From a virus (Duplodnaviria > Caudoviricetes): a stretch of DNA of 64,000 nt. Below, one piece after another: positions 2,658-25,824 of the stretch; the first letter of the stretch is position 1, and each line of letters opens with the position of its first letter. A program made the position numbers and the translations under genes. The notes below the pieces were generated by a model that saw only the letters and a list, made by a program, of their open reading frames with translations, did no database searches and was not told where the DNA came from. The DNA lies in IMG/VR virus record IMGVR_UViG_2706796482_000001, positions 69,532-133,531 of that record, one strand, 5' to 3'.

Positions 2658-3260
2658 ATGACTGACGTAGATATTGTACTGATTGTTGACCGTTCTGGTT
2701 CCATGGCACGAATTCAGATGGAGGCAGAAGGAGCTATCAATCAGTTCCTCAAGGACCAGAAGGAAATTGAGGGAGAGGCATTCGTTACTTTCGTGCAGTT
2801 CGACAACAAGTATGAGCAGAAGTTTGAGAAGGTTAGCCTAGCTAACGCTCCTCGCGTGGAGATTGAACCACGTGGCATGACTGCTCTGCTTGACGCAATC
2901 GGACGAACCGTAGTAGGATATGTACCACGAACTGAAAAGACAATCTACGTCATCATGACTGATGGCCTGGAGAATGCTTCTCAGGAGTGGACGAACGAGG
3001 CGGTCAAGAATCTGATTGCTGAGGAGAAGCAGCACGGAAGTGAGTTTGTGTATCTTGGTGCAAATCAGGATGCAATCGAGGTCGGTGCCAAGATGGGAAT
3101 CCCCATGGGAAGCAGCCTGACCTTTGCAGCAGACAAGAAGGGGCTTGACAACATGTCCCGCAGCATGACAAGCTATGTAACAGCGACTCGCTCTGGACTC
3201 GCATACGAGTTCACTGATGAGGACCGCAAGAACGCTACAGGCTTGACAGACAGCGAGTGA
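2658..3260 (+). CDS. von Willebrand factor A (vWA) domain protein
   Basis: MIDAS DRSGSM, T..LDA, MTDGLEN. Confidence 0.88.
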   Translation: MTDVDIVLIVDRSGSMARIQMEAEGAINQFLKDQKEIEGEAFVTFVQFDNKYEQKFEKVSLANAPRVEIEPRGMTALLDAIGRTVVGYVPRTEKTIYVIMTDGLENASQEWTNEAVKNLIAEEKQHGSEFVYLGANQDAIEVGAKMGIPMGSSLTFAADKKGLDNMSRSMTSYVTATRSGLAYEFTDEDRKNATGLTDSE

Positions 3261-3271
3261 GCTGCTAAAGT
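3243..3271 (+). promoter_or_regulatory. Sigma70/HrdB-type promoter driving the Y-RNA/tRNA cluster
   Basis: TTGACA-17 nt-TAAAGT; predicted start about 3277-3278. Similar TTGACA-N17/18-TANNNT promoters recur at about 4717, 7851, 11522, 11874, 15235, 17070, 18255, 21053, 21836, 23705, 24598, 26795, 31350, 33965, 34961, 35279, 35785 and 42544. Confidence 0.8.
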
Positions 3272-3277
3272 ATTAAA

Positions 3278-3361
3278 TGTGGGTCGAAGAGTTCAGTCGG
3301 TTATCTAATTAATGGAATCAGAAGCTCGTAAAGGGCACCCGACACTCACACCATATCCACA
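3278..3361 (+). ncRNA. Y RNA-like gene 1 (minimal module)
   Basis: 5' TGTGGGTCGAAGAGT..GTCGGTTATC pairs with 3' CCGAC-ACTC-ACACCATATCCACA; GNCGAAG motif; starts at the promoter TSS. Confidence 0.7.
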
Positions 3362-3365
3362 CTCT

Positions 3366-3436
3366 GCATCGGTAGTTTAATGGTAGAACGTCTGACTTCC
3401 AATCAGACAGCGCGGGTTCGATTCCCGCTCGGTGCT
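3366..3436 (+). tRNA. tRNA-Gly(TCC)
   Basis: Cloverleaf, loop CTTCCAA, T-loop TTCGATT. Confidence 0.93.
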
Positions 3437-3566
3437 CCGAAGACCTGGATTCGCCTCTGCTGACTTTTGTCAGTATGCTACCAGCGAAATGTAGTCCGGA
3501 CTATGTTTCGGCCTCTGACCCGGAGGCGTTAAGCGAGTGGCAGACTCTAACTGTCAGGGTGCTCAT

Positions 3567-3638
3567 TCCCCTTTGGTGTAACCGGCAACACAACAGACTC
3601 TGAATCTGTAATTCCTAGTTCGAATCTAGGTTGGGGAG
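3567..3638 (+). tRNA. tRNA-Gln(CTG)
   Basis: Cloverleaf, loop CTCTGAA; two U-U mismatches in acceptor stem. Confidence 0.88.
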
Positions 3639-3845
3639 CTGGTCCGACTTCGTGATATCGGTGACAATAACTGATTCGGAACGCATAATAACCATGGTAA
3701 AAGTGCGGAAAGAGGATGTAACGATAATCGGAAGCGATGGGTAAAACCTCCTCGGACCGACAATTTAAGACCTGGCTCCAACCCATAGGGATGTGGGAAC
3801 GGAGAGATTGATATGGCTGCGAAGTCCCTCCAGCGCGATATCCAT

Positions 3846-3916
3846 ATGTCCTTCGTATAATGGTAGTACAAGAGATTCCAAACCTCTTAGCGTGGGTTCG
3901 ATTCCTACAGGACATG
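3846..3916 (+). tRNA. tRNA-Trp(CCA)
   Basis: Cloverleaf, loop TTCCAAA. Confidence 0.9.
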
Positions 3917-3917
3917 C

Positions 3918-4066
3918 TTTGACGAAGCCCGCCTTAGCAGGCATGAACGATGGTGGTCAGCATAAACCATTTAGTAAGCCCAAGGGCAGTATCAAAAGGC
4001 AAAGGCCATGCTGAGGTCTGCTGAGTAGAGAAGTAGGGGTTAAGGTCCCAAAGAGCGTCAAAACCA
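3918..4066 (+). ncRNA. Unknown structured RNA with 7-bp terminal helix and ACCA end
   Basis: TTTGACG/CGTCAAA+ACCA; inner stems CTTAGCAGG/TCTGCTGAG, GCATG/CATGC, ATGGT/ACCAT. Confidence 0.55.
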
Positions 4067-4122
4067 TTTAACAATCGCCCGGTATCGAATAGGTACCGGG
4101 CACAATCATTGCTGGAGGAAGA

Positions 4123-4554
4123 ATGGGATATTACTGTGACTGGGATGTAGACGTAAGAGGTTCTGGCCCAATCTACAATAAGCTCATGGCACAAAAGGAT
4201 GAGGAGTACGTTAGCGAAAGTTACGAAATCACCCTTGGACGCTGGCTTGAATGTGAGCAGAATCTCAAGTGGTACGAAGTTGAGGAAGAGGGAAAGGCAT
4301 TCTCTCGCAAGTGGCCGAACGTCATGCTCATCGTTACCTATCTTGGTGAAGATGGAGCACAGGGTCGGCACTGGTTCCGAAATGGACACACTTATCATGT
4401 AAAGGCTCAGGTTGCATATCCAGAACCCGACTTTGACAAGGTAATGCCACTGAACATGCAGCTTGAGCTGGAAAGCATTGAAACGCGCAAGCGCGAGGTG
4501 CTTGAAAAGATGAAGGAGCTACAGGCAGAGCTTGACGAGTACCAGGAGGACTGA
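4123..4554 (+). CDS. Hypothetical phage protein
   Basis: GGAGG RBS, 143 aa ORF. Confidence 0.7.
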   Translation: MGYYCDWDVDVRGSGPIYNKLMAQKDEEYVSESYEITLGRWLECEQNLKWYEVEEEGKAFSRKWPNVMLIVTYLGEDGAQGRHWFRNGHTYHVKAQVAYPEPDFDKVMPLNMQLELESIETRKREVLEKMKELQAELDEYQED

Positions 4555-4773
4555 TATCGTGGCTCTTACAGGACGCAACGGACAATGCTGGTTTCAGAAG
4601 TGCACTCGCAAGGCAACGACGACAATCAGATATCACAACAAGTCTGTTGTTGTTTGTGATGGGCACAAGAATCTGGATGGTGTAGGCTGTCCTTCTAGCA
4701 GGCGGAGACCAAAGAGTTGACACTACTCAGAGGGTCTGCTAGTATTAAGTACAACGGCAGGGAAACCTGCTAT

Positions 4774-4845
4774 CAGGCACGGGGAAGATGGTAATCCGTT
4801 GGCTTTGGAAGCCTAAGACACTCGGTTCGATTCCGAGGTGCCTGA
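4774..4845 (+). tRNA. tRNA-Pro(TGG)
   Basis: Cloverleaf, loop TTTGGAA. Confidence 0.87.
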
Positions 4846-4849
4846 CTTC

Positions 4850-4924
4850 CGGGATATAGCTCAGTTTGGTCAGAGCGCTGCATTTGGGATGCAGAAGTCG
4901 CTGGTTCGAATCCAGTTATCCCGA
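4850..4924 (+). tRNA. tRNA-Pro(TGG)
   Basis: Cloverleaf, loop TTTGGGA. Confidence 0.93.
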
Positions 4925-4927
4925 CTA

Positions 4928-5004
4928 GCCCCATAGGATAATGACTAATCCGCCTGTACGTGGAGTACAGGTAATACCGGTTAAATTCCGGACTAGGGGC
5001 TCCA
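4928..5004 (+). ncRNA. Atypical tRNA-like RNA (extended anticodon stem, encoded CCA)
   Basis: GCCCC/GGGGC+TCCA; D arm GGAT/ATCC; CCTGTAC-GTGGA-GTACAGG; T arm CCGG-TTAAATT-CCGG. Confidence 0.65.
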
Positions 5005-5008
5005 AACT

Positions 5009-5161
5009 TTTGGGTCGATTGAGACACGGTTATCTTACACAATGGATACTAGGTTCGATTCCTAGGGGTGCCGTAAAAAGCGCTCTGTAAAGTCATCTCA
5101 GATGTGTGTGGTAGGATGACATAAGGTACTACACTCTCTCCGTTCTCGCCACTTACCTAAA
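5009..5161 (+). ncRNA. Y RNA-like gene 2 (T-arm plus pseudoknot module)
   Basis: TTTGGGTCGATTGAGACACGGTTATC ... CCGT-TCTC-GCCACTT-ACCTAAA; internal CTAGG-TTCGATT-CCTAG. Confidence 0.6.
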
Positions 5162-5170
5162 GGATTTATC

Positions 5171-5692
5171 ATGACGGTACTTCTACGAACAATTCACGGA
5201 AGCCATCTATATGGCCTTGCGCACGCCGGTTCGGATAAAGATATCTACGAAGTAGTATCTACCAAAAGAACTAAGAGAAAGCGCAACATTAAGCAAACCA
5301 TTGTAAATGGAGTTGACAAGACTACAGTAGACCTGTCAACATTCATGCACATGGTTGATGAATGTGTACCTCAAGCACTTGAAGCGCTATGGACGCCGGT
5401 ACCAGATGTGGATGAAATCCACCAGTTCCGGACACAGTATAGAGTGAATCGCGCCAAGATGAAGGATGTATATATTCGAACCGCTCTGAACTTCGCCAAG
5501 AATGATGATGTAAAGCGTAAGCGACATGCACTTCGCTTGCTGCTGAATCTAGGCGCAGCTTTGGAATACGGTAAATTCAATCCCCGCCTCTCAACCATGG
5601 ATAAGTTTATCATTAACTCCACTATGGGAGAGACGGGAGCTTACGAAGATGTCTTTGTTGGCATCATCGATGAAGTTCAAAAGTGGGTCTGA
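5171..5692 (+). CDS. Pol-beta superfamily nucleotidyltransferase (RlaP/Nuc-transf-like)
   Basis: HGSHLYGLAHAGSDKDIY (GS..YG....SDxD) motif. Confidence 0.8.
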   Translation: MTVLLRTIHGSHLYGLAHAGSDKDIYEVVSTKRTKRKRNIKQTIVNGVDKTTVDLSTFMHMVDECVPQALEALWTPVPDVDEIHQFRTQYRVNRAKMKDVYIRTALNFAKNDDVKRKRHALRLLLNLGAALEYGKFNPRLSTMDKFIINSTMGETGAYEDVFVGIIDEVQKWV

Positions 5693-5705
5693 TGGCTCAC
5701 GCCAA

Positions 5706-5782
5706 TGGGGCGTATACCCTCACTCTGATAAAGTGTAGAAAGGTTAATCGGTTACATGTGGGTTCAATTCCCACCGTCCCAA
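5706..5782 (+). ncRNA. Topologically rearranged tRNA-Ile(GAT)-like RNA
   Basis: Acceptor TGGGGCG/CGTCCCA, CACT-CTGATAA-AGTG, T arm GTGGG-TTCAATT-CCCAC; no D arm in the normal position. Confidence 0.65.
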
Positions 5783-5792
5783 CTGGCTCTCA

Positions 5793-7631
5793 TTGGAGAG
5801 CAATCCTAGAAACCCTAAAACAATGGTAGATTTCGACAAGAGACATTCTAAAGAACTTGTGAAACGCCCTGACGCAGACCTGGTTGATACCAGGTCTTTT
5901 CGGTCTTCCGGTCAGGGTGTATTTTCGCATGTCCGGAAGGGTGTCAAAATAACGAGTAAAGCCATTCTGGATTGGGTCTACCTGAATGACTACAAGGAAG
6001 AGATTGCCAAGGCTAAGAATGAGGGCAATCTAGAAAAGGCCCGGAAGTTGAAGATTGAGCAGGAGAAGCGTAGTGAGCCGAGACGTAAGAGATTCTACTC
6101 TGTGCTCGCTGTGCTGATTGCACTAACGGGATGGGCCTACGTTACATGGGCCATTATTCCAATCGCTGTAGTAGGTGTTACCCTCCTTGTAGCCATGTGG
6201 TTCGTAGGTAGCGGCTTCAAGCCTAGCCAGTTCAATTTCAAGAATGGCGATGGGGAAGACGACCCCATGGAACCTTTTCCAATTGCTGACGCTCGAACCA
6301 GAGACGAGGCGATGGAGTGTTTGAGGAGAGCACTTCTTGCTGAGGGAATCACTCCAAGAGTAATCTTGGAACCAACTCGTTACAACTGGGGATGGGAAAT
6401 CCCGGTAGTATTGAGAAAAGGTACTCCTGATGATGTAATGTCTAAGGCTAAGAAGATGGAGACTCTTCTCAGACTACCGGCCGATGGTATGCTAGTCGCA
6501 GCAACAAGGTTCCGTGCCGAAGTTGTTATCAGACTTATGCAGACTGACCCATTTGCCGACATGACAATGGAGCCTAGAGCAGAACCTCTTTCTCGTTCAA
6601 TCAAGAAGAAGTACAAGATTGCACAGAGGATGGATGGCTCTCCGCTTGAAATCAGCTTGCTGAGAAACCACGCAGTTGTTATTGCTGCTCCTGGTGGTGG
6701 TAAGTCAATGTTCATGCGTAAGCTTGCAGACATCACCACTAGCTGTAGAGACTGTGTAACCTGGGACATTGACCCTGGCGGTAATGGACTCGAAGTCTTC
6801 GGAAGGGCCATCGCAAGACGTGGTAGGACCGAAGAGGAAATTGAAGAAATGCTAACGGAGGCTCTGGAGTACACGAAGATTCGTGCAAAGAAGCTGACGA
6901 AGCTAGGAATGGGTGACAATTGGCAGCCAACCAAGGACCATCCTGCCCTTATCATCTTCATTGATGAGTTCATTCAGCTCAACAAAAAGTGCAAGGATTT
7001 GGCAATCCAGATTATTCGCAATGGGCGTAAGTCTGCTATTACTGTCGTACTCGCTGCACAGCAGGCAACGAAGGACACTCTTGGTGCCGCCATTGCAGAT
7101 GCAGTGTCTATTAAGGTAATGTTTGCTTCTCGTCACGCTGACGTACCTCTCGTGTTTGGAGAGGGCATGTTGTCACAGGGCTGGAGACCTGATAAGCTAC
7201 ATCCAGCATCAGGTGAGGATGTGGAAGACGCTGGTAAGTGCTACATTTTGGGCGGTGGCTCAAGAGAGCCTTACCTGTACAAGGTCTTCCCAATCGAGCC
7301 AGATGAGGCAATTGAGATGGGTGACGAGCGTGAAGCAGAGGGTATGCCCGAGCTTGACACAGACACCTACCTAGATGTTACAGTTACAGACACGACGGAC
7401 AAGAGACTGCTTGAGGATGTACTAGACGTGTTTGAGAACTTTGACGAGAATGACTGGCTCCCTGCCAGCATCTTGGTCAAGGAACTCAAGGGCTACGGCC
7501 ACACCTTGACAGCTCGTCAGTTGCATGAGACTCTAGGAGATACCGGCCGAGAGAGCCGTATTTGGGAAGGGTCCAAGTACAAGGTGGCTGGTTACTTCCG
7601 AAAGAACATCGAGAAGCAATTGGAGAAATGA
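5793..7631 (+). CDS. FtsK/SpoIIIE-family (TraB-like) DNA translocase, membrane anchored
   Basis: Two TM helices, Walker A APGGGKS, Walker B IFIDE, GRKSAI..V.AAQ, possible C-terminal wHTH; likely ATG at 5823. Confidence 0.85.
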   Translation: MESNPRNPKTMVDFDKRHSKELVKRPDADLVDTRSFRSSGQGVFSHVRKGVKITSKAILDWVYLNDYKEEIAKAKNEGNLEKARKLKIEQEKRSEPRRKRFYSVLAVLIALTGWAYVTWAIIPIAVVGVTLLVAMWFVGSGFKPSQFNFKNGDGEDDPMEPFPIADARTRDEAMECLRRALLAEGITPRVILEPTRYNWGWEIPVVLRKGTPDDVMSKAKKMETLLRLPADGMLVAATRFRAEVVIRLMQTDPFADMTMEPRAEPLSRSIKKKYKIAQRMDGSPLEISLLRNHAVVIAAPGGGKSMFMRKLADITTSCRDCVTWDIDPGGNGLEVFGRAIARRGRTEEEIEEMLTEALEYTKIRAKKLTKLGMGDNWQPTKDHPALIIFIDEFIQLNKKCKDLAIQIIRNGRKSAITVVLAAQQATKDTLGAAIADAVSIKVMFASRHADVPLVFGEGMLSQGWRPDKLHPASGEDVEDAGKCYILGGGSREPYLYKVFPIEPDEAIEMGDEREAEGMPELDTDTYLDVTVTDTTDKRLLEDVLDVFENFDENDWLPASILVKELKGYGHTLTARQLHETLGDTGRESRIWEGSKYKVAGYFRKNIEKQLEK

Positions 7632-7855
7632 TGGAAGCCGTACTCGTCGGCCCCGTCATCCTATGGGTTCTGATTTCACTATACCTTGTCAAGAAGAAGG
7701 GTAAGCAGTGGCCGGAACTAATGTGGGGTATTGTCGGAGGTCTCATCCTTGCTACCATCTTTACCGGTCTTCCTAAGACCGTGTATAACATGGCTGATAC
7801 AGGATGGAACGGAGTAGTCAGCGTAGCGCAGAGCATCACCAACTCTCAGGGTTGA
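7628..7855 (+). CDS. Small two-TM membrane protein coupled to the translocase gene
   Basis: ATGA overlap, two hydrophobic stretches. Confidence 0.7.
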   Translation: MMEAVLVGPVILWVLISLYLVKKKGKQWPELMWGIVGGLILATIFTGLPKTVYNMADTGWNGVVSVAQSITNSQG

Positions 7856-7912
7856 CAGGTGCTCTGCCTCGCTGTAATATAGACTTAAACCTAGTCCTTC
7901 CGGGCTAGATGA

Positions 7913-7986
7913 GCGCCAGTAGCATAACGGTTCAATGCAGTAGGCTTATATCCTACCGAGAGAAGGTTCAATTCCTTCCTGGCGTA
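7913..7986 (+). tRNA. tRNA-Ile(TAT)
   Basis: Cloverleaf, loop CTTATAT. Confidence 0.88.
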
Positions 7987-7988
7987 CT

Positions 7989-8133
7989 TGTGGGTCGAAG
8001 ATAATTGTTTATCTTCAAATCAGCTTGTTGGGGGTTCGAATCCTCCCTGGGGACTTCATTGTCCTCGGTAGCTCAATGGCAGAGCGGCTGACATTGCCCA
8101 AATGGGCTAGACGATTGTCACACCATATCCACA
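7989..8133 (+). ncRNA. yrlA: Y RNA, YrlA type (circularly permuted tRNA-like domain)
   Basis: Putative Ro-binding stem TGTGGGTCGAAGATAATTGTTTA/TAGACGATTGTC-ACACCATATCCACA enclosing T arm (GGGGG-TTCGAAT-CCTCC), closed acceptor stem (CTGGGGAC/GTCCTCGG), then D arm (GCTC-AATGGCA-GAGC). Confidence 0.85.
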
Positions 8134-8160
8134 TTACATAACTACTACTTAAGGACAGTA

Positions 8161-8328
8161 ATGGCTGCGCTATCGCACGCGATTGGTACGAAGGTAAAGG
8201 TTACAAACGGTAGCTACAGGAACAAGACTGGTGTTGTTCAGGTCAAGGATGGTCACATGGTGGTCGTCATGGACAAGGACAATTCAGTTCTGTATGGAGC
8301 TAGCGATTCCATGGTTGAGAAGGTGTAA
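8161..8328 (+). CDS. Small hypothetical protein (KOW/SH3-like)
   Basis: AAGGA RBS; IGTKVKVTNGSYRNKTGVV. Confidence 0.55.
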   Translation: MAALSHAIGTKVKVTNGSYRNKTGVVQVKDGHMVVVMDKDNSVLYGASDSMVEKV

Positions 8329-8487
8329 ATGGCTTACTTTGAAGGCCAGAAGATTTGGGTCAATGGAGAGCCTGGCATTTATGTCAAGGATTCTGACAAC
8401 CCAACCTTGGCAAAGGTAGAAGTTCCAGAGGGTTCTGGAAACGTAATGCTTTGTGTAAAGAAGCAAATCAACGTTCGGTCTGACTGA
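8329..8487 (+). CDS. Small hypothetical protein
   Basis: ATG abuts previous stop; 52 aa. Confidence 0.5.
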   Translation: MAYFEGQKIWVNGEPGIYVKDSDNPTLAKVEVPEGSGNVMLCVKKQINVRSD

Positions 8488-8496
8488 GCGTTTTTT

Positions 8497-8582
8497 GGAA
8501 GGTAAGCGATTGGTTTAGCGGGTGTCTTGGAAAGGCACTAAGGGTGTTACAGCCCGGCAGGGTTCAATTCCCTGGCCTTCCG
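8497..8582 (+). tRNA. tRNA-Ser(GGA)
   Basis: Loop TTGGAAA, long variable arm, G73. Confidence 0.85.
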
Positions 8583-8595
8583 CAGGAGGTGCAAT

Positions 8596-8814
8596 ATGAT
8601 AATCTGTGGAGACACAGTTGAAGTAAAGCACGACCGTCCGAATATTGAATCTGCCTATTACGGAAAGCGTGGCAGAATTCACAAGCGGACTCGTATTCTC
8701 GGAAAGCTCGGTGCTGGGGATTACGAAATTATGTTCTTCGATAGAGAACTCAATCATCCTATCATGGGTGTGATGGGTGGCTTTAACGAAGATGACCTGG
8801 AAGTCATTCGCTGA
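8596..8814 (+). CDS. Hypothetical protein
   Basis: GGAGGT RBS. Confidence 0.6.
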   Translation: MIICGDTVEVKHDRPNIESAYYGKRGRIHKRTRILGKLGAGDYEIMFFDRELNHPIMGVMGGFNEDDLEVIR

Positions 8815-8823
8815 CTTCCCCAT

Positions 8824-8909
8824 GGAGGCACGCATTGGAGTGCTTATCGGTCTTGAAAACCGTGATGACGTAGTGATATGTCGTGGGGGTTCGACTCCCT
8901 CTGTCTCCG
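8824..8909 (+). tRNA. tRNA-Ser(TGA)
   Basis: Loop CTTGAAA, long variable arm, G73. Confidence 0.82.
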
Positions 8910-8957
8910 CCCTAAACCCGGTACTAATTGTGCCGGGCCTTATTTATAGGAGGAAGT

Positions 8958-9140
8958 ATGGCTAATGAGCCTACTGGTAACAACAAAAAAGAATGGGTGA
9001 AGTACATTGAAGAAAACCGAATCCCATTCTGGTGCTCTGTCTGTTCAACTGAGAATCCTCGTAAGTGTCAATGCTGGTCTGACATTCAGCGATGGGAGCA
9101 GGTTGAGCTATGGCAGGGTGAAGAGAGGCGCAAGAAGTGA
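8958..9140 (+). CDS. Hypothetical Cys-rich protein
   Basis: AGGAGG RBS. Confidence 0.55.
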   Translation: MANEPTGNNKKEWVKYIEENRIPFWCSVCSTENPRKCQCWSDIQRWEQVELWQGEERRKK

Positions 9141-9529
9141 GTGCCGTACTTCTTGGAGTATTGCTCCACTTCATTGGTGATTACATCATCCAGACAGACT
9201 GGATGGCACAGCTAAAGACAAAGCGATGGGCTCCAGCAATTGTCCACGGTGTCACATACGGTGTCCCGTTTGTCTTCGCTACGATGTCACCGATAGCCCT
9301 GGCTGTCATCATTGTCACTCACATTGTCATCGACCATTACCGCCTTGCTCGACATCTAGTATGGGCAAAGAATCAGCTTGCTCCAAAGAGCTGGCGATAT
9401 TCTTGGAGCGAAGGTCATCTGACAGGATATCGAAATGACGGTCCTGTCTGGCTCAACACTTGGCTGATGATTATCGCAGATAACACATTGCATATCATCA
9501 TCAACACTCTAGCCATCCTCTACCTATGA
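9137..9529 (+). CDS. DUF3307-like membrane protein
   Basis: HFIGDY..QTDWMA..K, H.VIDH, DNTLH. Confidence 0.75.
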   Translation: MSAVLLGVLLHFIGDYIIQTDWMAQLKTKRWAPAIVHGVTYGVPFVFATMSPIALAVIIVTHIVIDHYRLARHLVWAKNQLAPKSWRYSWSEGHLTGYRNDGPVWLNTWLMIIADNTLHIIINTLAILYL

Positions 9530-9566
9530 GGGTGGCTTTTTGTGTTTTCAATGATAAAATGGATGC

Positions 9567-11519
9567 ATGGCTAATTCAACACCCTTGCTAGGAGCAGGAA
9601 ATGTAACCACAGCAAGCAATGCAAATGCGACATCCATAACCGTCAACAAGCCAGCCAATCTGGCAGACGGTCATTACATGTTTGCAGCTATTCTTCAAAG
9701 AAATGCGGCCGGTACGTGGACTGTTCCTTCCGGCTGGATAGAAGTTGGCGTAACTCAGCAAGATTACGTTGACTGCAAGGTGTATTACAAGGCAGTGCCA
9801 TCGGCAGCAGCAGAGACAGCGACAAGCTATACCTGGACAACCAACAAGACGGCTGAGAGAATTGTAGCAATCGTATGGCTCCAGACTAGCGTGAACGCTT
9901 CTCCAATTGATGCTCTGGGCTCTGGAACGGCTACAGCACCCAATCGTACTACCATGAACTTCGCATCCGTGACAGCAGTAAGTTCTCATGCCACCCTGAT
10001 GACTATTGGATATAGCACTATTGCTGGTGGCTCTACTGCACCGGTCGGTTCTACTCCAACTGGAATGACGGAAATCGCTAATGTCAATATTGCTAATGCT
10101 ACTCCAAATGCATTGAATCTCAAGGTAAGCTATCAGGTTCTTAATGTAGCTGGAGCCACTGGAACAAGGGCGACTAACTATTCACCGGCCGCTTCTGGTT
10201 CTGGCGGATTCACATTCACTATAAATCCTGACGGAGACCCACCACCAACTGTCATCGCATTGAGACAAGGACTTGGTGACAGGGACAAAGTACGTGTCCT
10301 CAGCAGGACAAGCTTTGCGACATCTGTCCGCTTGGCTGTCTCATTGTCCAGTGACATGTCCTCACCTGTGTATTCATCCTCAGTGACACCGGACAGCGAT
10401 GGGTACTCTAAACTAACTGTCACTGGTTTGTCCCAGGACACGAAGTATTACTTTGCGCTGGAAGTCAATGGTGTCCTCGACATGTCACTGACAGGACAGA
10501 CAAGGACATTCCCTGTGACAGGCTCTTTCAGCTTCCTTGCTGCGTCATGCTCTTACACTGCATCAAATCATGCAGTCTTTGATGCTATGCGCACACGAGT
10601 CGGCCCAGATGGATTGCCTGCAAGATTCTTCGCTCATCTGGGAGACGTTCATTATGAACACGCTAGCTACCAGCCTCAGCCAATAGCTCCAAATGACCCA
10701 GCAGAGCACCGTACAAATTACGAGAATGGATTGATGACTGCTCGCCAGTCTGCTCTTTGGCGCAATATTCCTGTGAGCCATACGTACTCAGACAATGACT
10801 TCTGCGGAAGCAACTCTGATAGCACGTATGCTGCTCGTCCAGCTATCATTGCTGTAAGACATCAAATCATGATTGACCCGCCTCTTCCTGACTCTCAGGG
10901 AAATGGTCTTTGGAGAAGTTGGGTAGTTGGCCGAGTTCGTTTTATACAAACGGACAGCCGTACCTACATGAGCGCAAAGGGGGCTACAGACAACAGCTCT
11001 AAGACTATGCTGGGAGCGGAACAGAAGGCATGGCTCAAGAGTCAGCTTCTGCAACCAGAACTTCTCAAGGTATGGCTACATGACCAAGCATGGGGAGGAA
11101 TAGCAACAAATCCCGGTAATAATGATACTTGGCAAGCATTCAATACTGAGAGAGTAGAGATAGGAAACTTCATCTCTACTAACAAAGTCAAGGTAGTTTA
11201 TGTTCATGGCGATAGCCATCGTCTTTCTGCTGATGACGGAATTCTTAACACAAGGGGAGGATTCCCAACAATCTCTTGTGCTCCTATGGACCAATCTTCT
11301 CAGGGAGGAGATTCATCAGGAGAAGCAAATTCAGCAGGAGTCTATCCAGCTTATGGAGTTACACAACCAGGTAATTACTACGGATGGTTTGATGTCAATG
11401 ACGATGGGTATCAGCTCTCTTTGATATTCAAGGGGTACGATTCAGAAGGAACGCAGAGAGTAACCATGACAGTTACTGTCAGTCCTGAGAAGGCAACTGG
11501 ATGGGGATATCCTCTCTAA
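9567..11519 (+). CDS. PhoD-like phosphatase/phosphodiesterase with FN3 domain and Thr/Ala/Ser-rich N-terminal beta domain
   Basis: HLGDVHY, SDNDF, TDSRTY, TMLGAEQKAWLK, HGDSH; FN3-like LTVTGLSQDTKYYF. Confidence 0.8.
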   Translation: MANSTPLLGAGNVTTASNANATSITVNKPANLADGHYMFAAILQRNAAGTWTVPSGWIEVGVTQQDYVDCKVYYKAVPSAAAETATSYTWTTNKTAERIVAIVWLQTSVNASPIDALGSGTATAPNRTTMNFASVTAVSSHATLMTIGYSTIAGGSTAPVGSTPTGMTEIANVNIANATPNALNLKVSYQVLNVAGATGTRATNYSPAASGSGGFTFTINPDGDPPPTVIALRQGLGDRDKVRVLSRTSFATSVRLAVSLSSDMSSPVYSSSVTPDSDGYSKLTVTGLSQDTKYYFALEVNGVLDMSLTGQTRTFPVTGSFSFLAASCSYTASNHAVFDAMRTRVGPDGLPARFFAHLGDVHYEHASYQPQPIAPNDPAEHRTNYENGLMTARQSALWRNIPVSHTYSDNDFCGSNSDSTYAARPAIIAVRHQIMIDPPLPDSQGNGLWRSWVVGRVRFIQTDSRTYMSAKGATDNSSKTMLGAEQKAWLKSQLLQPELLKVWLHDQAWGGIATNPGNNDTWQAFNTERVEIGNFISTNKVKVVYVHGDSHRLSADDGILNTRGGFPTISCAPMDQSSQGGDSSGEANSAGVYPAYGVTQPGNYYGWFDVNDDGYQLSLIFKGYDSEGTQRVTMTVTVSPEKATGWGYPL

Positions 11520-11621
11520 GTTGACAGCTCTCCTTGGAGCTGCTACGGTAGTATTACACTTGAGAAAATAAAGAAAAAGCTAGTTAGATACTAGCTAGAA
11601 TCTAGTTAGAATATAGGGAAT

Positions 11622-11876
11622 ATGAGACTCTTTGAACTTCATAGAGACATAGATTCGTCTGGTGTCTCTGGAACAGGAGTGGTTGCTCAGGGTGTAGAGT
11701 TTGACAATGGGCAGTGTGCCATGGCATGGTTGTCCGAGTGGCAGTCAGTTGCCATTTATCCTGACATTACCGTCCTTGAAGCGATTCATGGACACAACGG
11801 CAACACTCGTGTAGTATGGCTTGAGGATGACGAAGATTATTGGGCTGGCTATCAGTCAGCGCCGGTAGGCAGTTGA
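11622..11876 (+). CDS. Hypothetical protein
   Basis: Own promoter; RDIDSSGVSGTGVVAQGVEF motif resembles a family recalled from actinobacteria/phages. Confidence 0.7.
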   Translation: MRLFELHRDIDSSGVSGTGVVAQGVEFDNGQCAMAWLSEWQSVAIYPDITVLEAIHGHNGNTRVVWLEDDEDYWAGYQSAPVGS

Positions 11877-11979
11877 CAGGGTTTGTCCTTGATGCTAGTG
11901 TAGAACGTAGAGCAGGTCGGCAAGCAGGTAAGTGAGGAATACAGGAGCTTGAGCCACAACCCCTCCACCTAGCTCTCTT

Positions 11980-12055
11980 GCGTCTGTAGTATAGTCTGGT
12001 CTAATGCACCTGATTGTCAATCAGGAAATCGCGGGTTCAAATCCCGTCAGGCGCG
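11980..12055 (+). tRNA. tRNA-Asp(GTC)
   Basis: Cloverleaf, loop TTGTCAA, G73. Confidence 0.93.
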
Positions 12056-12360
12056 CATGAAATCGAGATGGAAGTATTCTGCAAAGTACAAATCACCAAA
12101 TGGTTGCAAGGCTTCTATCACCAGCTCAGTAAGGGCTGACAGCTTTGATGAAGCCTATGAAGAAGTATGCAATCAATTGAGGCATCAGAGCTTTGAACTT
12201 ATTGGCATGACTATTGAGAAGGAATAGATGGCTATTCGATTCTGTCCATCATGTATGCAAAATGTCGTTACCATCGTACAGAAGCCAAACTGTAAGCACT
12301 GTGATACAGTTACTAAGCCGGTAGATGAGAAGCTTCCTCTACCAGACGAAGGCGAAGTAA

Positions 12361-12585
12361 ATGACCTTATTGGTAAGCGACGAAAGCGAGATAAAAATGC
12401 CTAGATACGAAATCAAGGGAACTATTCCCTTCGGAGATGAAACCGAAGTGGTTGATGACGTATTTGAAGCAAGAAATCAGCTTGAAGCAAATCGGAAGTT
12501 CAATGCACGTGTGCAGGAGATTTCCAGGCAGACTGGTCGCAAGACGACTGGTAAGCCAAACGTAACAATCACCCTCATGAAGTAG
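12361..12585 (+). CDS. Hypothetical protein
   Basis: ORF in + gene run. Confidence 0.55.
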   Translation: MTLLVSDESEIKMPRYEIKGTIPFGDETEVVDDVFEARNQLEANRKFNARVQEISRQTGRKTTGKPNVTITLMK

Positions 12586-12593
12586 GGTGTTAT

Positions 12594-12664
12594 CCCGGCG
12601 TGGTGTAATGGTAACATACTGCGTTGTCAGCGCAATGTCGAGGGTTCGATTCCCTTCGTCGGGA
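12594..12664 (+). tRNA. tRNA with GTC anticodon (Asp-type, atypical A73)
   Basis: Cloverleaf, loop TTGTCAG. Confidence 0.82.
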
Positions 12665-12667
12665 CTT

Positions 12668-12778
12668 TGTGGGTCGAAAGAGTAAGTCGGTTATCTTCCT
12701 TTGAATAAGAAACAGATAGGTTCGAATCCTATGTAGCCCAAGGCACGGGCGACTCCGACTCTCACCAATATATCCACA
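12668..12778 (+). ncRNA. Y RNA-like gene 4 (T-arm module)
   Basis: TGTGGGTCGAAAGAGTAAGTCGGTTATC ... CCGACT-CTC-ACCAATATATCCACA; internal ATAGG-TTCGAAT-CCTAT; about 0.8 kb upstream of Ro60. Confidence 0.78.
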
Positions 12779-12782
12779 TGTT

Positions 12783-13112
12783 ATGAATACACAAGAGAGA
12801 ATCGAAAAGCTAAAAGAACTGTGGAACGATGGCTGGTATCTAGAAGATGCCATTGGAGAAATCGGTGACCATCTTACAGAAGATGAGTTCAAGCCAAAGT
12901 TCATTGACACCATCGAAGAAGATGAGTCTCGATGGATGATGCATACTCTGGATATTGCTGAGATTGACGAAGGTGTATACGTTGGTGTACGCTGGGAACG
13001 AGGCAAGACAGAGATGCAAGAGAACATCTTTGATGATAAGAACGTCTACCTTCTTGAAAAGGTTGAGAAGGTGGTCACAACTGTCGATTGGAATGACGTA
13101 AAGAAGCTATGA
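12783..13112 (+). CDS. Hypothetical acidic protein
   Basis: 109 aa ORF. Confidence 0.7.
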   Translation: MNTQERIEKLKELWNDGWYLEDAIGEIGDHLTEDEFKPKFIDTIEEDESRWMMHTLDIAEIDEGVYVGVRWERGKTEMQENIFDDKNVYLLEKVEKVVTTVDWNDVKKL

Positions 13113-13531
13113 AAAATTGGCTCGGACATGAAATCGAAGTTGGCGCAGTCGTATTCCGTGGCGGAAAGCAGGGCACATCGTCCTCTTTCCGCGTCGGTGT
13201 TGTAGACGCCATTGACGTAGAAAAGCAGACTGCTCGTGTAGAGTGGCACTGGGTTCCAAGCAATCGTCCTGTATGGGACAAGGATAAGTACCAGTATTGG
13301 CACATGGATGACAATCGCTACTACGTTTCTGGCCCTTCTAAAGCCAGCACTCAGAGAACTCGCTACTCCATCAACGACCTTGCGAGGCTTGATGACGGTA
13401 TGCTAGAGTACCTACAGAAGCGATACCAGCTTATCGAAGCTGCTATCCACTACAAGATTCGTGAAGAAGATTTTGCTCAGTTCGAGCATGACTTTGAAAT
13501 GGGACTAGTTCCCGAAATTCCTATGCCTTAA
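13109..13531 (+). CDS. Hypothetical protein
   Basis: ATGA overlap. Confidence 0.7.
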   Translation: MKNWLGHEIEVGAVVFRGGKQGTSSSFRVGVVDAIDVEKQTARVEWHWVPSNRPVWDKDKYQYWHMDDNRYYVSGPSKASTQRTRYSINDLARLDDGMLEYLQKRYQLIEAAIHYKIREEDFAQFEHDFEMGLVPEIPMP

Positions 13532-13550
13532 GAAAGGGCCGGTAACAAAA

Positions 13551-15200
13551 ATGTCTAACGCACTTAACAACGCAGCTAAGGGTCTCAACAAGACTCCTCA
13601 GACTGTCAAGGCCAAGAGTGGTCAGGTCAAGAACAACGCTGGTGGATTCGTCTTCCAGGTTTCTGACCAGGCTCGCCTTGAGCGATTCCTGATTCTCGGT
13701 GTAGATGGCGGTACGTATTACGTCAAGGAGACCGACCACGCACGTAGTAACGTGCAGTTCCTCAACGACATGATTGAGCGAGACGAAGCCTCTGTACTGA
13801 ACACCATTGTGGACGTGTCCGTCAATGGTCGTGCATACAAGCAGTCTCCAGTCCTGTTCGCGCTAGCCTCTGTCATTGTCCACGGACGTGACAAGCAGTC
13901 CGTCAAGGCTGTCTTCAATCGTGTTGTTCGTACAGGCACGCACCTCTATGAGGTCGTGAACTACCTGAACACCATGGGTGGATGGGGTCGTGCAAAGCGC
14001 GAAATCGTTGCTGGATGGTTCGACAAGGATGCTGATAAGCTGGCTTACCAGATGGTCAAGTACCGTTCTCGTAAGTTTGGCGACCAGACCTGGACCATGC
14101 GTGACGTAATGCGTAAGGCTCACCCACGAGATGTTAACACGTCTGCGGCTGACTTTGCTCTCGGCAAGGAGCACGACGCTATTGATGACCTTCGGGTTAT
14201 TGAGGGCTTCAAGCTCATGCAGAAGGCTCAGTCTGTCGAGGATGTTCACAGCGTTCTCCGTGAGTATGAGATGCTTTCATGGGAGACAATCCCAACTCAG
14301 TTCCTCAAGGACGTGAGTGTATGGAAGCGCATCTTCGCCAATGGTCAGCTTCGTGGTCAGGCTCTTGTCCGAAACATCACTCGTCTCGCACGAATTGGTG
14401 CTTTCCAGGACATGCGCTTCGCTGCCGCGTATGCAGGACAGCTTACGAACCAGGAAATGATTGTACAGACTCGTCTGCACCCAATCAACTTCCTGAACGC
14501 ATCTGTCGTGTACAACGACGGTCAGATGAAGCGAGTCAATGACCGCTGGGGCTTTGAATCAGAGCAGCGAGTCAAGGATTGGACAACCGAAAGTGTCATT
14601 GTTGACGCTCTCAATGAGGGCTTCCACAAGGCATTCAAGGCTGTCGAGCCTGCTGGCAAGCGTACGATGCTGGCTCTGGACGTATCAGGTTCTATGAGTG
14701 CAAAGGCTAACGGTCTCGACCTTAGCTGTGCTCAGGTTTCTGCTGCAATGTCTATGGCCATCGCTCGTACCGAGCCTGCTCACATCATCCGAGGATTCAC
14801 GTCTTCTGGTGGTGGCTACAGCTACAGGAGCAGCGGTCTGACTGACCTCGGTATCAGCGCTCGTACTGACCTTGCTACGGCAATGCGCAGTGTGCAGCGT
14901 CACAACTGGGGTGGCACAGATTGTTCACTCCCAATGCGTTGGGCTCTTGAGAACAGGGTAGAAGTTGACACCTTTGTGGTTATCACTGATAACGACACAT
15001 GGGCTGGCGACATTCACCCATTCCAGGCGCTCAAGGAGTACCGTAAGAAGACTGGAATTCCAGCTCGTCTGGCAGTTCTGGGAGTTCAGGCAACTGAATT
15101 CACCATTGCTGACCCAAGCGATGCGGGAATGATGGACTTCGTTGGATTTGACAGCAATGCGCCTCGTGCGCTGGCTGACTTCTCCGCTGGTCGCATCTGA
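13551..15200 (+). CDS. rsr: Ro60/TROVE RNA-binding protein (Rsr ortholog)
   Basis: QVKNNAGGFVF..RLERFLILGVDGGTYY, KYRSR..W..RD..RKAHP, vWA LDVSGSM, GGTDCSLPM, ITDNDTW, GFDS. Confidence 0.96.
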   Translation: MSNALNNAAKGLNKTPQTVKAKSGQVKNNAGGFVFQVSDQARLERFLILGVDGGTYYVKETDHARSNVQFLNDMIERDEASVLNTIVDVSVNGRAYKQSPVLFALASVIVHGRDKQSVKAVFNRVVRTGTHLYEVVNYLNTMGGWGRAKREIVAGWFDKDADKLAYQMVKYRSRKFGDQTWTMRDVMRKAHPRDVNTSAADFALGKEHDAIDDLRVIEGFKLMQKAQSVEDVHSVLREYEMLSWETIPTQFLKDVSVWKRIFANGQLRGQALVRNITRLARIGAFQDMRFAAAYAGQLTNQEMIVQTRLHPINFLNASVVYNDGQMKRVNDRWGFESEQRVKDWTTESVIVDALNEGFHKAFKAVEPAGKRTMLALDVSGSMSAKANGLDLSCAQVSAAMSMAIARTEPAHIIRGFTSSGGGYSYRSSGLTDLGISARTDLATAMRSVQRHNWGGTDCSLPMRWALENRVEVDTFVVITDNDTWAGDIHPFQALKEYRKKTGIPARLAVLGVQATEFTIADPSDAGMMDFVGFDSNAPRALADFSAGRI

Positions 15201-18417: not shown

Positions 18418-18543
18418 AGGAGTATAGTTTAGTGGCAAAACAGTGAAATGCGCTGTCGAAAGAGGGAAGTTGCCGAGCTAAAGGCTGGTTCGCTTGAGTA
18501 GATATCAGAGTAGCAATCGTCGGTTCGATTCCGACTGCTCCGC
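18418..18543 (+). ncRNA. tRNA scaffold with about 70-nt insert replacing the anticodon arm
   Basis: GGAGTA/TGCTCC acceptor, D arm GTTT-AGTGGCA-AAAC, T arm GTCGG-TTCGATT-CCGAC; insert contains GTCGAAAGAG. Confidence 0.7.
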
Positions 18544-25752: not shown

Positions 25753-25824
25753 GCATGTAAGCCAGGGATAAGCTAGGCGGGCCTGTAAAGCCCTACCTCG
25801 ATGGTTCGAATCCGTCTACATGCA
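25753..25824 (+). tRNA. tRNA-Tyr(GTA), atypical D arm and short variable region
   Basis: Loop CTGTAAA; acceptor GCATGTA/TACATGC. Confidence 0.75.

What the first reader, a model, noticed from the sequence alone, without database searches (positions are those of the whole stretch)
3278..15200. Phage Ro60 with a family of at least four modular Y RNAs
Seen in sequence: loci 3278-3361, 5009-5161, 7989-8133 and 12668-12778 share the frame 5'-(TG)TGGGTCGA(A)..helix..(GG)TTATC ... helix-(A/G)C(A)CCA..AT/ACC(C)ACA-3'. The second helix shows compensatory changes (GAGT..GTCGG/CCGAC-ACTC, GATAATTGTTTA/TAGACGATTGTC, GAGACACGG/CCGT-TCTC). Three copies match the GNCGAAN0-1G motif of bacterial Y RNA Ro-binding stems, and a complete Ro60/TROVE gene lies at 13551-15200. 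The enclosed modules differ: minimal, T-arm plus pseudoknot, full permuted tRNA, and T-arm plus hairpin. Established: Ro60 with YrlA RNA is known in bacteria and some phages. Inference: one phage Ro60 is programmed by interchangeable RNA adaptors or decoys that are co-transcribed and processed with tRNAs. Such a diversified set may be undescribed, and tRNA/ORF annotation would miss it.
Basis: partly seen in the sequence, partly recalled or inferred. Interest (0 to 1): 0.92.

Follow-up and report, generated by a model that had tools for sequence, protein, structure and literature searches.

The report
Four unannotated phage Y RNAs
This Streptomyces phage carries four unannotated small RNA genes, wedged between its tRNA genes, that all share the docking "handle" of Y RNAs (the known partners of the Ro60 protein the phage also encodes) but each display a different structured module; such multi-RNA sets turn out to be common beside Ro60 genes of many phages.

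Summary
The window is the right half of a 133.5-kb Streptomyces BE1-type phage, 98% identical to phage Targaryen. It holds exactly four RNAs with one frame: a 7-bp terminal stem, a CGA(A) bulge, a second helix, UUAUC, a variable module, and the return strands. They lie at 3278-3361, 5009-5161, 7989-8133 and 12668-12778. All are on the strand of a complete Ro60/Rsr gene (13551-15200).

Covariance models built from them show strong covariation. They also hit the Ro60 strand, almost always just upstream of the gene, in unrelated bacteria and in 44 of 55 diverse viral contigs (125 hits, all on that strand). So these are Y RNAs: Y3 is YrlA-like (a permuted tRNA), and the others are YrlB-like with a hairpin, a T-arm plus pseudoknot, or a T-arm plus hairpin.

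They abut tRNAs by 1-4 nt, and Y1 starts 7 nt after a conserved promoter. Binding, expression and function are untested.

One relative (Annadreamy) lacks Ro60 yet keeps six such RNAs. Arrays of four to six are frequent in environmental Ro60 phages, so this set is not unique.

Verdict: new members of a known kind. This scan earlier noted the Y4 orthologue and similar four-RNA sets on other DNA.

The parts
3243..3271 (+). Promoter-like site TTGACA-17 nt-TAAAGT with TG before the -10 hexamer; ends 7 nt before Y1
   Evidence: Consensus scan, 10 of 12 matches. The same -35, spacing and -10 are conserved upstream of Y1 in 11 phages. Function is inferred.
3278..3361 (+). Y1: minimal Y RNA. Terminal stem 3278-3284/3355-3361, CGAA 3285-3288, second helix, UUAUCU, small hairpin about 3324-3336. 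tRNA-Gly starts at 3366.
   Evidence: Model R1, 79.1 bits; R2, 67.9 bits. Orthologues in 10 phages show compensatory changes. No Rfam family at E<=10 apart from chance-level hits.
5009..5161 (+). Y2: handle with the CGAUU variant. T-arm 5049-5065, hairpin 5066-5085, hairpin 5092-5120 whose loop (5104-5113) pairs with 5127-5136 to form a pseudoknot. The 3' handle strand touches the ribosome-binding site of the next gene.
   Evidence: R2, 33.2 bits, E 4.5e-6; this sequence was not in the training set. Nine orthologues are 96% paired, with 7 pairs changed on both sides, 2 of them in the pseudoknot.
7989..8133 (+). Y3: YrlA-like Y RNA. Handle plus tRNA-like domain 8020-8091 (T-arm 8030-8046, closed acceptor-like stem-loop 8047-8068, D-arm 8071-8085) and an extra hairpin 8096-8107. 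It starts 1 nt after tRNA-Ile.
   Evidence: Rfam YrlA RF02553, 39.8 bits, E 1e-7, gathering score 69. R1, 35.1 bits; R2, 70.4 bits. Fold z-score -4.05.
12668..12778 (+). Y4: handle plus T-arm 12716-12732 and hairpin 12736-12750. It starts 2 nt after tRNA-Asp and lies 0.8 kb upstream of Ro60.
   Evidence: R1, 51 bits; R2, 84.3 bits. RNAalifold on 12 orthologues recovers the terminal stem, T-arm and hairpin, with 7 covarying pairs.
13551..15200 (+). Ro60/Rsr gene (549 aa; TROVE ring plus vWA domain with the DVSGS MIDAS motif)
   Evidence: Pfam; NCBIfam Rsr, 1.9e-134; PDB 2nvo, 3e-97, and human and Xenopus Ro60 near 1e-75; invariant D377, S379 and S381.
5171..5692 (+). Nucleotidyltransferase gene directly after Y2 (context only; borderline RlaP-like)
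   Evidence: Pfam RlaP, 23.1 bits against a cut-off of 23; PHROG nucleotidyltransferase, 1.3e-21.
3366..3438 (+). tRNA-Gly, 4 nt after Y1 (context: shared processing). Likewise tRNA-Ile 7913-7987 and tRNA-Asp 12594-12665 end 1-2 nt before Y3 and Y4.
   Evidence: ARAGORN and Rfam.

Best explanation
The four loci are genes for phage Y RNAs, the small non-coding partners of Ro60. Each has the same docking handle: its 5' and 3' ends pair into a 7-bp stem, followed by an asymmetric internal loop (5' CGAA, 3' A/C-rich ending in CAU or CUU), a second helix, and an invariant UUAUC at the 5' edge of the loop domain. Each presents a different module: a small hairpin; a T-arm plus pseudoknot; a whole permuted tRNA-like domain as in YrlA; or a T-arm plus hairpin. 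Inferred steps follow. They are transcribed with the phage tRNAs from sigma-70-like promoters and released by the nucleases that trim the adjoining tRNAs. They dock on the phage Ro60 ring through the handle. As shown for D. radiodurans Y RNA with PNPase and for Thermus phage phiLo, the modules then gate the ring or tether it to other RNA-handling proteins, probably tRNA-binding ones, to control structured RNAs during infection.
For: Shown here. (1) Four copies and no more occur in the genome, all on the Ro60 strand. (2) Covariation supports the frame. In 32 distinct sequences of the phage family, 92% of cells pair against 78% in shuffles, 11 of 16 pairs change on both sides, and slid controls stay below 47%. 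In 65 RNAs from 20 environmental viral contigs, 94% pair, 15 of 16 pairs change on both sides, and slid controls stay below 43%. (3) There is a link to Ro60 that does not depend on this genome. Model R1, built only from Y1 orthologues lying 10 kb from Ro60, hits the Ro60 strand within about 600 nt upstream of the gene in Poribacteria, Chthonomonas and Fimbriimonadia MAGs. It also hits beside the Ro60 gene, on its strand, in Mycobacterium phage Rizal and Gordonia phages Sixama and BearBQ. Model R2 gives 125 hits in 55 Ro60-bearing viral contigs, all on the Ro60 strand and 122 of them upstream. (4) Y3 matches Rfam YrlA. (5) Family members without Ro60 (Circinus, Wakanda) and Rhodococcus phage Grayson have no hit, although they are large phages of the same terminase lineage. 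(6) The RNAs lie 1-4 nt from tRNAs in every phage checked, and Y1 follows a conserved promoter. From the literature: GNCGAAN0-1G marks bacterial Y RNAs, bacteria have at least two of them, D. radiodurans Yrn2 is co-transcribed with a tRNA, and M. smegmatis YrlB has a T-arm (PMC4201824). Single CGAA substitutions lower phiLo Ro60 binding 3- to 4-fold (PMC12135203).
Against: There are no expression, end-mapping or binding data. Phage Annadreamy has no Ro60 but keeps six copies, with compensatory changes relative to its Ro60-bearing sister Beuffert. The phage's own Ro60 therefore cannot be their only reason to exist. Y1, Y2 and Y3 lie 5-10 kb from Ro60, beyond the 4-kb criterion of Chen et al. 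Y2 has CGAUU in place of CGAA. Y3 scores below the Rfam gathering threshold, and Y1 has no Rfam match. The first part of the second helix is only 76% paired in the family alignment because its register shifts. The covariation alignments were fitted to the model.
Confidence: 0.78

Rival explanations
1. They are tRNA-mimicking RNAs that work without Ro60. Examples would be decoys or sponges for host tRNA-targeting nucleases, or for tRNA-modifying and tRNA-processing enzymes. On this reading the shared stem is only a stable clamp.
For: Three of the four carry a T-arm or a full tRNA-like domain. They sit inside the tRNA array. Annadreamy keeps six copies without Ro60.
Against: The clamp is not generic. 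Its CGA and UUAUC letters are nearly invariant, and the same frame tracks Ro60 genes across phyla in strand and position. Y1 has no tRNA-like part. Circinus and Wakanda lack both Ro60 and the RNAs.
Confidence: 0.12
2. They are processing or cis-regulatory structures of the tRNA operons. They could be punctuation for RNase cleavage, or leaders that control the ORFs starting 5-10 nt after Y2 and Y4. On this reading they are not free-standing RNAs.
For: They abut tRNAs by 1-4 nt. The 3' strand of Y2's terminal stem overlaps the AAAGGA ribosome-binding site of the nucleotidyltransferase gene, and Y4 ends 5 nt before an ATG.
Against: The same RNAs occur beside Ro60 in bacteria with no tRNA or ORF abutting. 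Y2 is absent before the same gene in Coruscant. Y1 and Y3 have no such ORF contact. This role could exist alongside a Y RNA role.
Confidence: 0.06
3. They are decayed tRNA genes or chance similarity.
For: T-arm-like hairpins are present. One orthologue of Y4 is annotated as tRNA-Ser in the phage Mildred21 record NC_042008.1.
Against: Compensatory changes maintain stems that are not tRNA stems, including a pseudoknot. The motif count far exceeds shuffles. All 125 hits share one strand.
Confidence: 0.01

Closest known systems
Bacterial YrlA/YrlB with Rsr (Salmonella Typhimurium, Mycobacterium smegmatis; YrlA also in 22 phages, mostly mycobacteriophages; Chen et al. 2014, PMC4201824; Rfam RF02553)
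   Same: They share the GNCGAAN0-1G motif near the 5' end, ends paired into a stem, and one member with a T-arm, closed acceptor-like stem and D-arm (Y3). Further shorter members exist, and one has a T-arm, like M. smegmatis YrlB. All are encoded on the Ro60 strand.
   Different: There are four copies here, not two. They are spread over 10 kb among tRNA genes, not clustered within about 2 kb upstream of Ro60. Y2 has a module not described for Y RNAs (T-arm plus pseudoknot). Y3 has an extra 12-bp helix between the handle and the tRNA-like domain, and it scores under the Rfam threshold. Binding was not tested.
Thermus phage phiLo Ro60 with Yrl1 and Yrl2 (PMC12135203, 2025)
   Same: A phage-encoded Ro60 is paired with phage-encoded Y-like RNAs that were identified by a CGAA bulge in a stem-bulge-stem.
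   Different: phiLo has two RNAs immediately upstream of the gene, and binding and a PNPase ternary complex were shown in vitro. Here there are four RNAs with tRNA-like modules inside tRNA operons, and nothing has been tested.
Deinococcus radiodurans Yrn1/Yrn2 and the Ro60-Y RNA-PNPase machine (RYPER)
   Same: It is the model for how the RNAs work, with the Y RNA acting as a tether and gate. Yrn2 is made as one precursor with tRNA-Asp and Yrn1 (PMC4201824), as inferred here.
   Different: Those RNAs are host RNAs induced by stress. No PNPase link was examined here.
Vertebrate Y RNAs and nematode stem-bulge RNAs (Rfam RF00019; PMC4726728, PMC4450293)
   Same: The order of elements is the same: lower stem, CGA bulge, upper stem, then UUAUC at the 5' end of the loop domain. 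UUAUC is reported as conserved in sbRNAs and vertebrate Y RNAs. An hY4-derived fragment reads GGUCCGA..GGGUUAUC (PMC5331234).
   Different: The Rfam Y_RNA model gives no hit on Y1 at E<=10. A review calls bacterial Y RNAs not homologous to the vertebrate clades (PMC4726728). The resemblance is a lead, not a demonstrated relationship.

Membership tests
Bacterial/phage Y RNA (Ro60-associated ncRNA, Chen et al. 2014) | GNCGAAN0-1G motif near the 5' end | tested here: met
   Y1 and Y3 read GUCGAAG and Y4 reads GUCGAAAG. Y2 reads GUCGAUUG in this phage, but its orthologues read GUCGAAAG or GUCGAAUG.
Bacterial/phage Y RNA (Ro60-associated ncRNA, Chen et al. 2014) | 5' and 3' ends pair into a stem interrupted by a bulge or internal loop (stem-bulge-stem) | tested here: met
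   The terminal stem is 96-98% paired, with 4 of 7 pairs (phage family) and 6 of 7 pairs (environmental set) changed on both sides.
Bacterial/phage Y RNA (Ro60-associated ncRNA, Chen et al. 2014) | Encoded near Ro60 on the same strand (within 4 kb in Chen et al.) | tested here: inconclusive
   All four are on the same strand. Y4 is 0.8 kb away, but Y3, Y2 and Y1 are 5.4, 8.4 and 10.2 kb away. The same model hits within 3 kb upstream of Ro60 in 44 of 55 viral contigs.
Bacterial/phage Y RNA (Ro60-associated ncRNA, Chen et al. 2014) | Co-occurrence with a Ro60 gene across genomes | tested here: inconclusive
   All Ro60-bearing relatives checked have the RNAs. Circinus, Wakanda and Grayson lack both. 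Annadreamy lacks Ro60 but has six.
Bacterial/phage Y RNA (Ro60-associated ncRNA, Chen et al. 2014) | Bound by Ro60 and dependent on it for stable accumulation | not testable with these tools
   This needs RIP, EMSA or Northern blots in a Ro60 deletion.
Bacterial/phage Y RNA (Ro60-associated ncRNA, Chen et al. 2014) | Expressed as a discrete small RNA | not testable with these tools
   No RNA run holding the stretch was found. The runs that were laid behave as DNA contigs.
YrlA (Rfam RF02553) | Score at or above the curated gathering threshold (69 bits) | tested here: not met
   Y3 scores 39.8 bits, E 1e-7 in a local search. The model's handle region aligns out of register because Y3 has an extra helix.
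YrlA (Rfam RF02553) | tRNA-like domain in the order T-arm, closed acceptor-like stem-loop, D-arm, closed by an anticodon-stem analogue | tested here: met
   The cmscan alignment and the minimum-free-energy fold of Y3 both show it.
Ro60/Rsr protein | TROVE HEAT-repeat ring plus C-terminal vWA domain with MIDAS | tested here: met
Metazoan Y RNA (Rfam RF00019) | Match to the family model | tested here: not met
   There is no RF00019 hit on Y1 at E<=10, nor in the 14-kb region. Only the order of motifs is shared.

The most novel reading that the evidence does not exclude
The handle found here (terminal stem, CGA(A) bulge, second helix, invariant UUAUC at the 5' edge of the loop) may be the same module as in vertebrate Y RNAs and nematode stem-bulge RNAs. 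If so, phage and bacterial Y RNAs share ancestry, or a Ro60 contact, with animal Y RNAs. That would run against the published view that they are not homologous. In addition, phage Ro60 genes may generally be served by arrays of up to six adaptors carrying different modules, some of which can act through a host Ro60 or without any Ro60, as the Ro60-less phage Annadreamy suggests.
Probability: 0.3. Interest if true: 0.75.

Novelty: new member of a known kind. Interest (0 to 1): 0.52.

Why it matters
More than 100 sequenced Streptomyces phages carry a Ro60 gene annotated only as "Ro-like RNA binding protein". In the nearest record its RNA partners are unannotated, and in one relative a copy is mislabelled as a tRNA. 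Naming four partners with defined boundaries and distinct modules gives a tractable phage-host system, with lytic phages on S. griseus and S. lividans. In that system one can ask what Y RNA modules do, and whether one Ro60 ring is directed to different targets by different RNAs. It also offers a natural Ro60-less relative for comparison. The survey shows that multi-Y arrays are a common, apparently undescribed feature of phage Ro60 loci. It also shows that UUAUC, known from animal Y RNAs, is the most conserved letter string of the phage family. The two covariance models could be used to annotate these RNAs.

Tried and rejected
Expression data: the sequencing-run search listed no holder on record as RNA. 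The "RNA-Seq" metagenome runs that I laid cover coding and non-coding parts alike and are probably DNA, so they say nothing on expression.

Host Ro60: I could not establish whether Streptomyces hosts encode Ro60.

Phage RNA repair pathway: no RtcB or Rnl-type ligase is present in the genome, and the nucleotidyltransferase after Y2 is only borderline RlaP. I therefore do not claim a repair operon.

Search methods: running R1 with filters off lost Y3, because the long insert is penalised. The default banded search finds it. My two first descriptor scripts were far too permissive and were discarded.

RNAalifold on the Y4 orthologues mispredicted the second helix, pairing invariant CGA with UCG, because MAFFT shifts the register. 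I rely on the model-based alignment for that helix.

Literature: the supplementary tables of Chen et al. 2014 and two Wolin reviews are not held.

Further copies: no additional copies were found in the window. The next-best hits (E >= 0.03, - strand, inside genes) were rejected.


Full report
**What the window is**

ARAGORN finds 42 tRNA genes and a tmRNA, all on the + strand. The Ro60 gene region is 98% identical to Streptomyces phage Targaryen (Samistivirus, Stanwilliamsviridae; BE1-type). The window is bases 69532-133531 of a 133,531-bp virus record with direct terminal repeats.

**The observation**

- TGGGTCGA occurs only at these four places.
- The joint motif GG[GT][TC]CGA-N4-18-[GT]TTATC gives five + strand hits (four loci and one tRNA-Pro T-arm) and none on the - strand. 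Shuffles give 0.19.
- Single-sequence folds recover the terminal stem for Y1, Y3 and Y4, and the Y3 fold has z = -4.05.
- The ORF at 13551-15200 is a complete Ro60/Rsr: TROVE plus vWA_Ro60, NCBIfam Rsr at 1.9e-134, D. radiodurans Rsr 2nvo at 3e-97, and a conserved MIDAS motif.

**Conservation and covariation in relatives**

I fetched the region from 13 related phages with Ro60 identity from 99% down to 50%. Orthologues of Y1, Y2 and Y4 are present in nearly all Boydwoodruffvirinae. Y3 is present in only a subset. Karimacvirus and Coruscant carry a fifth copy next to Y4 whose terminal stem has a wholly different sequence (AUCGGGC/GCCCGAU).

A covariance model (R1) built from ten Y1 orthologues alone finds Y4 at 51 bits and Y3 at 35 bits in the window. 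The alignment of 33 hits is 92% paired against 78% in shuffles. Eleven of 16 pairs change on both sides, and slid controls stay below 47%.

The Y1 orthologues fall into two registers, CGAA-G and CGAAN-G. This is exactly the N0-1 of the published GNCGAAN0-1G motif (PMC4201824).

Y2 orthologues are 96% paired over 42 pairs. Seven pairs are compensatory, and two of those lie in the loop-to-3' pairing that makes a pseudoknot. RNAalifold on 12 Y4 orthologues independently recovers the terminal stem, the T-arm (3 of 5 pairs covary) and the second hairpin.

A second model (R2), built from the 33 hits, finds all four loci and nothing else in the whole genome. The scores are Y4 84.3, Y3 70.4, Y1 67.9 and Y2 33.2 bits.

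**Are they Y RNAs?**

Three lines of evidence link the frame to Ro60 independently of this genome.
- Y3 matches Rfam YrlA over the T-arm, closed acceptor-like stem and D-arm (39.8 bits, E 1e-7). This is under the gathering score of 69, because Y3 has an extra helix and the model's handle region aligns out of register.
- R1 was trained only on RNAs lying 10 kb from Ro60. It nevertheless hits the Ro60 strand within about 600 nt upstream of the gene in Poribacteria, Chthonomonas and Fimbriimonadia MAGs and in a phage-like contig. It also hits beside the Ro60 gene, on its strand, in Mycobacterium phage Rizal and Gordonia phages Sixama and BearBQ. Rfam YrlA hits lie beside several of these, so tandem sets of two or three are usual.
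- A profile of Ro60 proteins retrieved 401 viral contigs, of which the best 80 are kept. In the 55 I took as the more divergent, R2 gives 125 hits at E <= 1e-4. All 125 are on the Ro60 strand, and 122 are upstream of the gene. Forty-four contigs have at least one hit, and 17 have four to six.

Sixty-five of these environmental RNAs are 94% paired, with 15 of 16 pairs changed on both sides. In that set CG of the bulge is invariant, and UUAUC is conserved at 100, 100, 98, 92 and 100% position by position. The model favours these letters. However, YrlA-type RNAs found through their tRNA domain carry GUUAUC too, in 4 of 5 cases, and the fifth has UUACC.

**Co-occurrence**

Circinus and Wakanda (Loccivirinae) and Rhodococcus phage Grayson lack both Ro60 and the RNAs. 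Annadreamy lacks Ro60 entirely, yet it has six hits matching the six of its Ro60-bearing sister Beuffert. The five copies beside the tRNA cluster that I compared pair off one for one, at 74-99% identity, with compensatory changes in module stems. The RNAs therefore persist, apparently under constraint, without a phage Ro60. A host Ro60 or another partner may be involved, but I could not test this.

**Biogenesis (inferred)**

- Y1 begins 7 nt after a TTGACA-17-TAAAGT site that is conserved in 11 phages, and it ends 4 nt before tRNA-Gly.
- Y3 and Y4 begin 1 and 2 nt after tRNA-Ile and tRNA-Asp.
- In relatives, Y2 begins 2 nt after tRNA-Pro. In this phage an 83-nt cloverleaf is inserted between them.
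- The same 1-4 nt spacing holds in Beuffert.
- D. radiodurans Yrn2 is likewise made together with a tRNA (PMC4201824).

**What is known, and novelty**

Published work describes Y RNAs with Ro60 in bacteria, with at least two per species. YrlA has been reported in 22 phages (PMC4201824), and two Yrl RNAs bind Thermus phage phiLo Ro60, with CGAA contributing to binding (PMC12135203).

I found no paper on Y RNAs of Streptomyces phages. The Targaryen record annotates none of them, and the phage Mildred21 record NC_042008.1 labels the Y4 orthologue tRNA-Ser. Y1 has no Rfam family.

UUAUC at the 5' end of the loop domain is reported for nematode sbRNAs and vertebrate Y RNAs (PMC4450293, PMC4726728). 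The papers I could read do not mention it for bacterial Y RNAs. The Rfam Y_RNA model does not hit Y1, so homology is not shown.

This scan had already noted the Y4 orthologue in another Streptomyces phage, and four-RNA sets beside a Ro60-like gene in Felix O1-type phages.

**Verdict**

These are real, conserved, unannotated Y RNA genes. They are new members of a known kind, in a larger and more dispersed set than has been published, though such sets are common in phage sequence data. Binding, expression and function remain to be tested.

Noticed in passing
window 4926-5008: An 83-nt cloverleaf lies between tRNA-Pro and Y2. It has a 6-bp acceptor-like stem, a D-arm, an 8-bp stem with a 5-nt loop, and a T-arm-like hairpin (z = -3.8). 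ARAGORN and Rfam tRNA do not call it. It is absent at this place in Bordeaux, Riptide and Stanimal, where Y2 follows tRNA-Pro directly.
   Followed up: partly
NC_048719.1 (Annadreamy) 65808-67187 and 92170-92265; locus L027: This Loccivirinae phage has no Ro60 gene, yet it keeps six Y-like RNAs matching the six of Beuffert. Relative to Beuffert, the gene block around Ro60 is missing.
   Followed up: partly
L038 (CAINGU010000031.1, labelled uncultured cyanobacterium MAG): The contig has more than 20 tRNA genes in a row, a Ro60 58% identical to this phage's, and three tandem Y RNAs. It looks like a phage or prophage contig binned into a bacterial MAG.
   Followed up: no
window 5706-5782, 18418-18543, 25753-25824, 25925-25995: These are Rfam tRNA matches (31-42 bits) that ARAGORN does not list. 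The 126-nt match may hold an insert.
   Followed up: no
window 3437-3566 and 3640-3845: These long spacers between tRNA genes fold into several stable hairpins (the first has z = -2.1). They may be further structured RNAs or processing signals.
   Followed up: no
window 28418-28700: A phage tmRNA with tag peptide ANSNVAFALAA. In Targaryen the tag is ANSKFAFALAA.
   Followed up: no
window 13551-13592: tblastn alignments of most Ro60 relatives start at residue 15 of this ORF, so the true start codon may lie downstream of 13551.
   Followed up: no
window 12783-13531: Two small ORFs of unknown function (PHROG 13073 and 2596) lie between Y4 and Ro60 and are conserved there in BE phages. They could be further parts of the Ro60 module.
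   Followed up: no
L084, L061, L063, L059 (IMG/VR contigs), within 3 kb upstream of Ro60: Each of these environmental phage contigs has six R2 hits on the Ro60 strand. In L061, L063 and L059 all six lie within the 3 kb upstream of Ro60; in L084 five do and one lies downstream. About 57% of 65 such RNAs (sampled from 20 contigs) contain a T-loop-like GUUCRANYC.
   Followed up: partly
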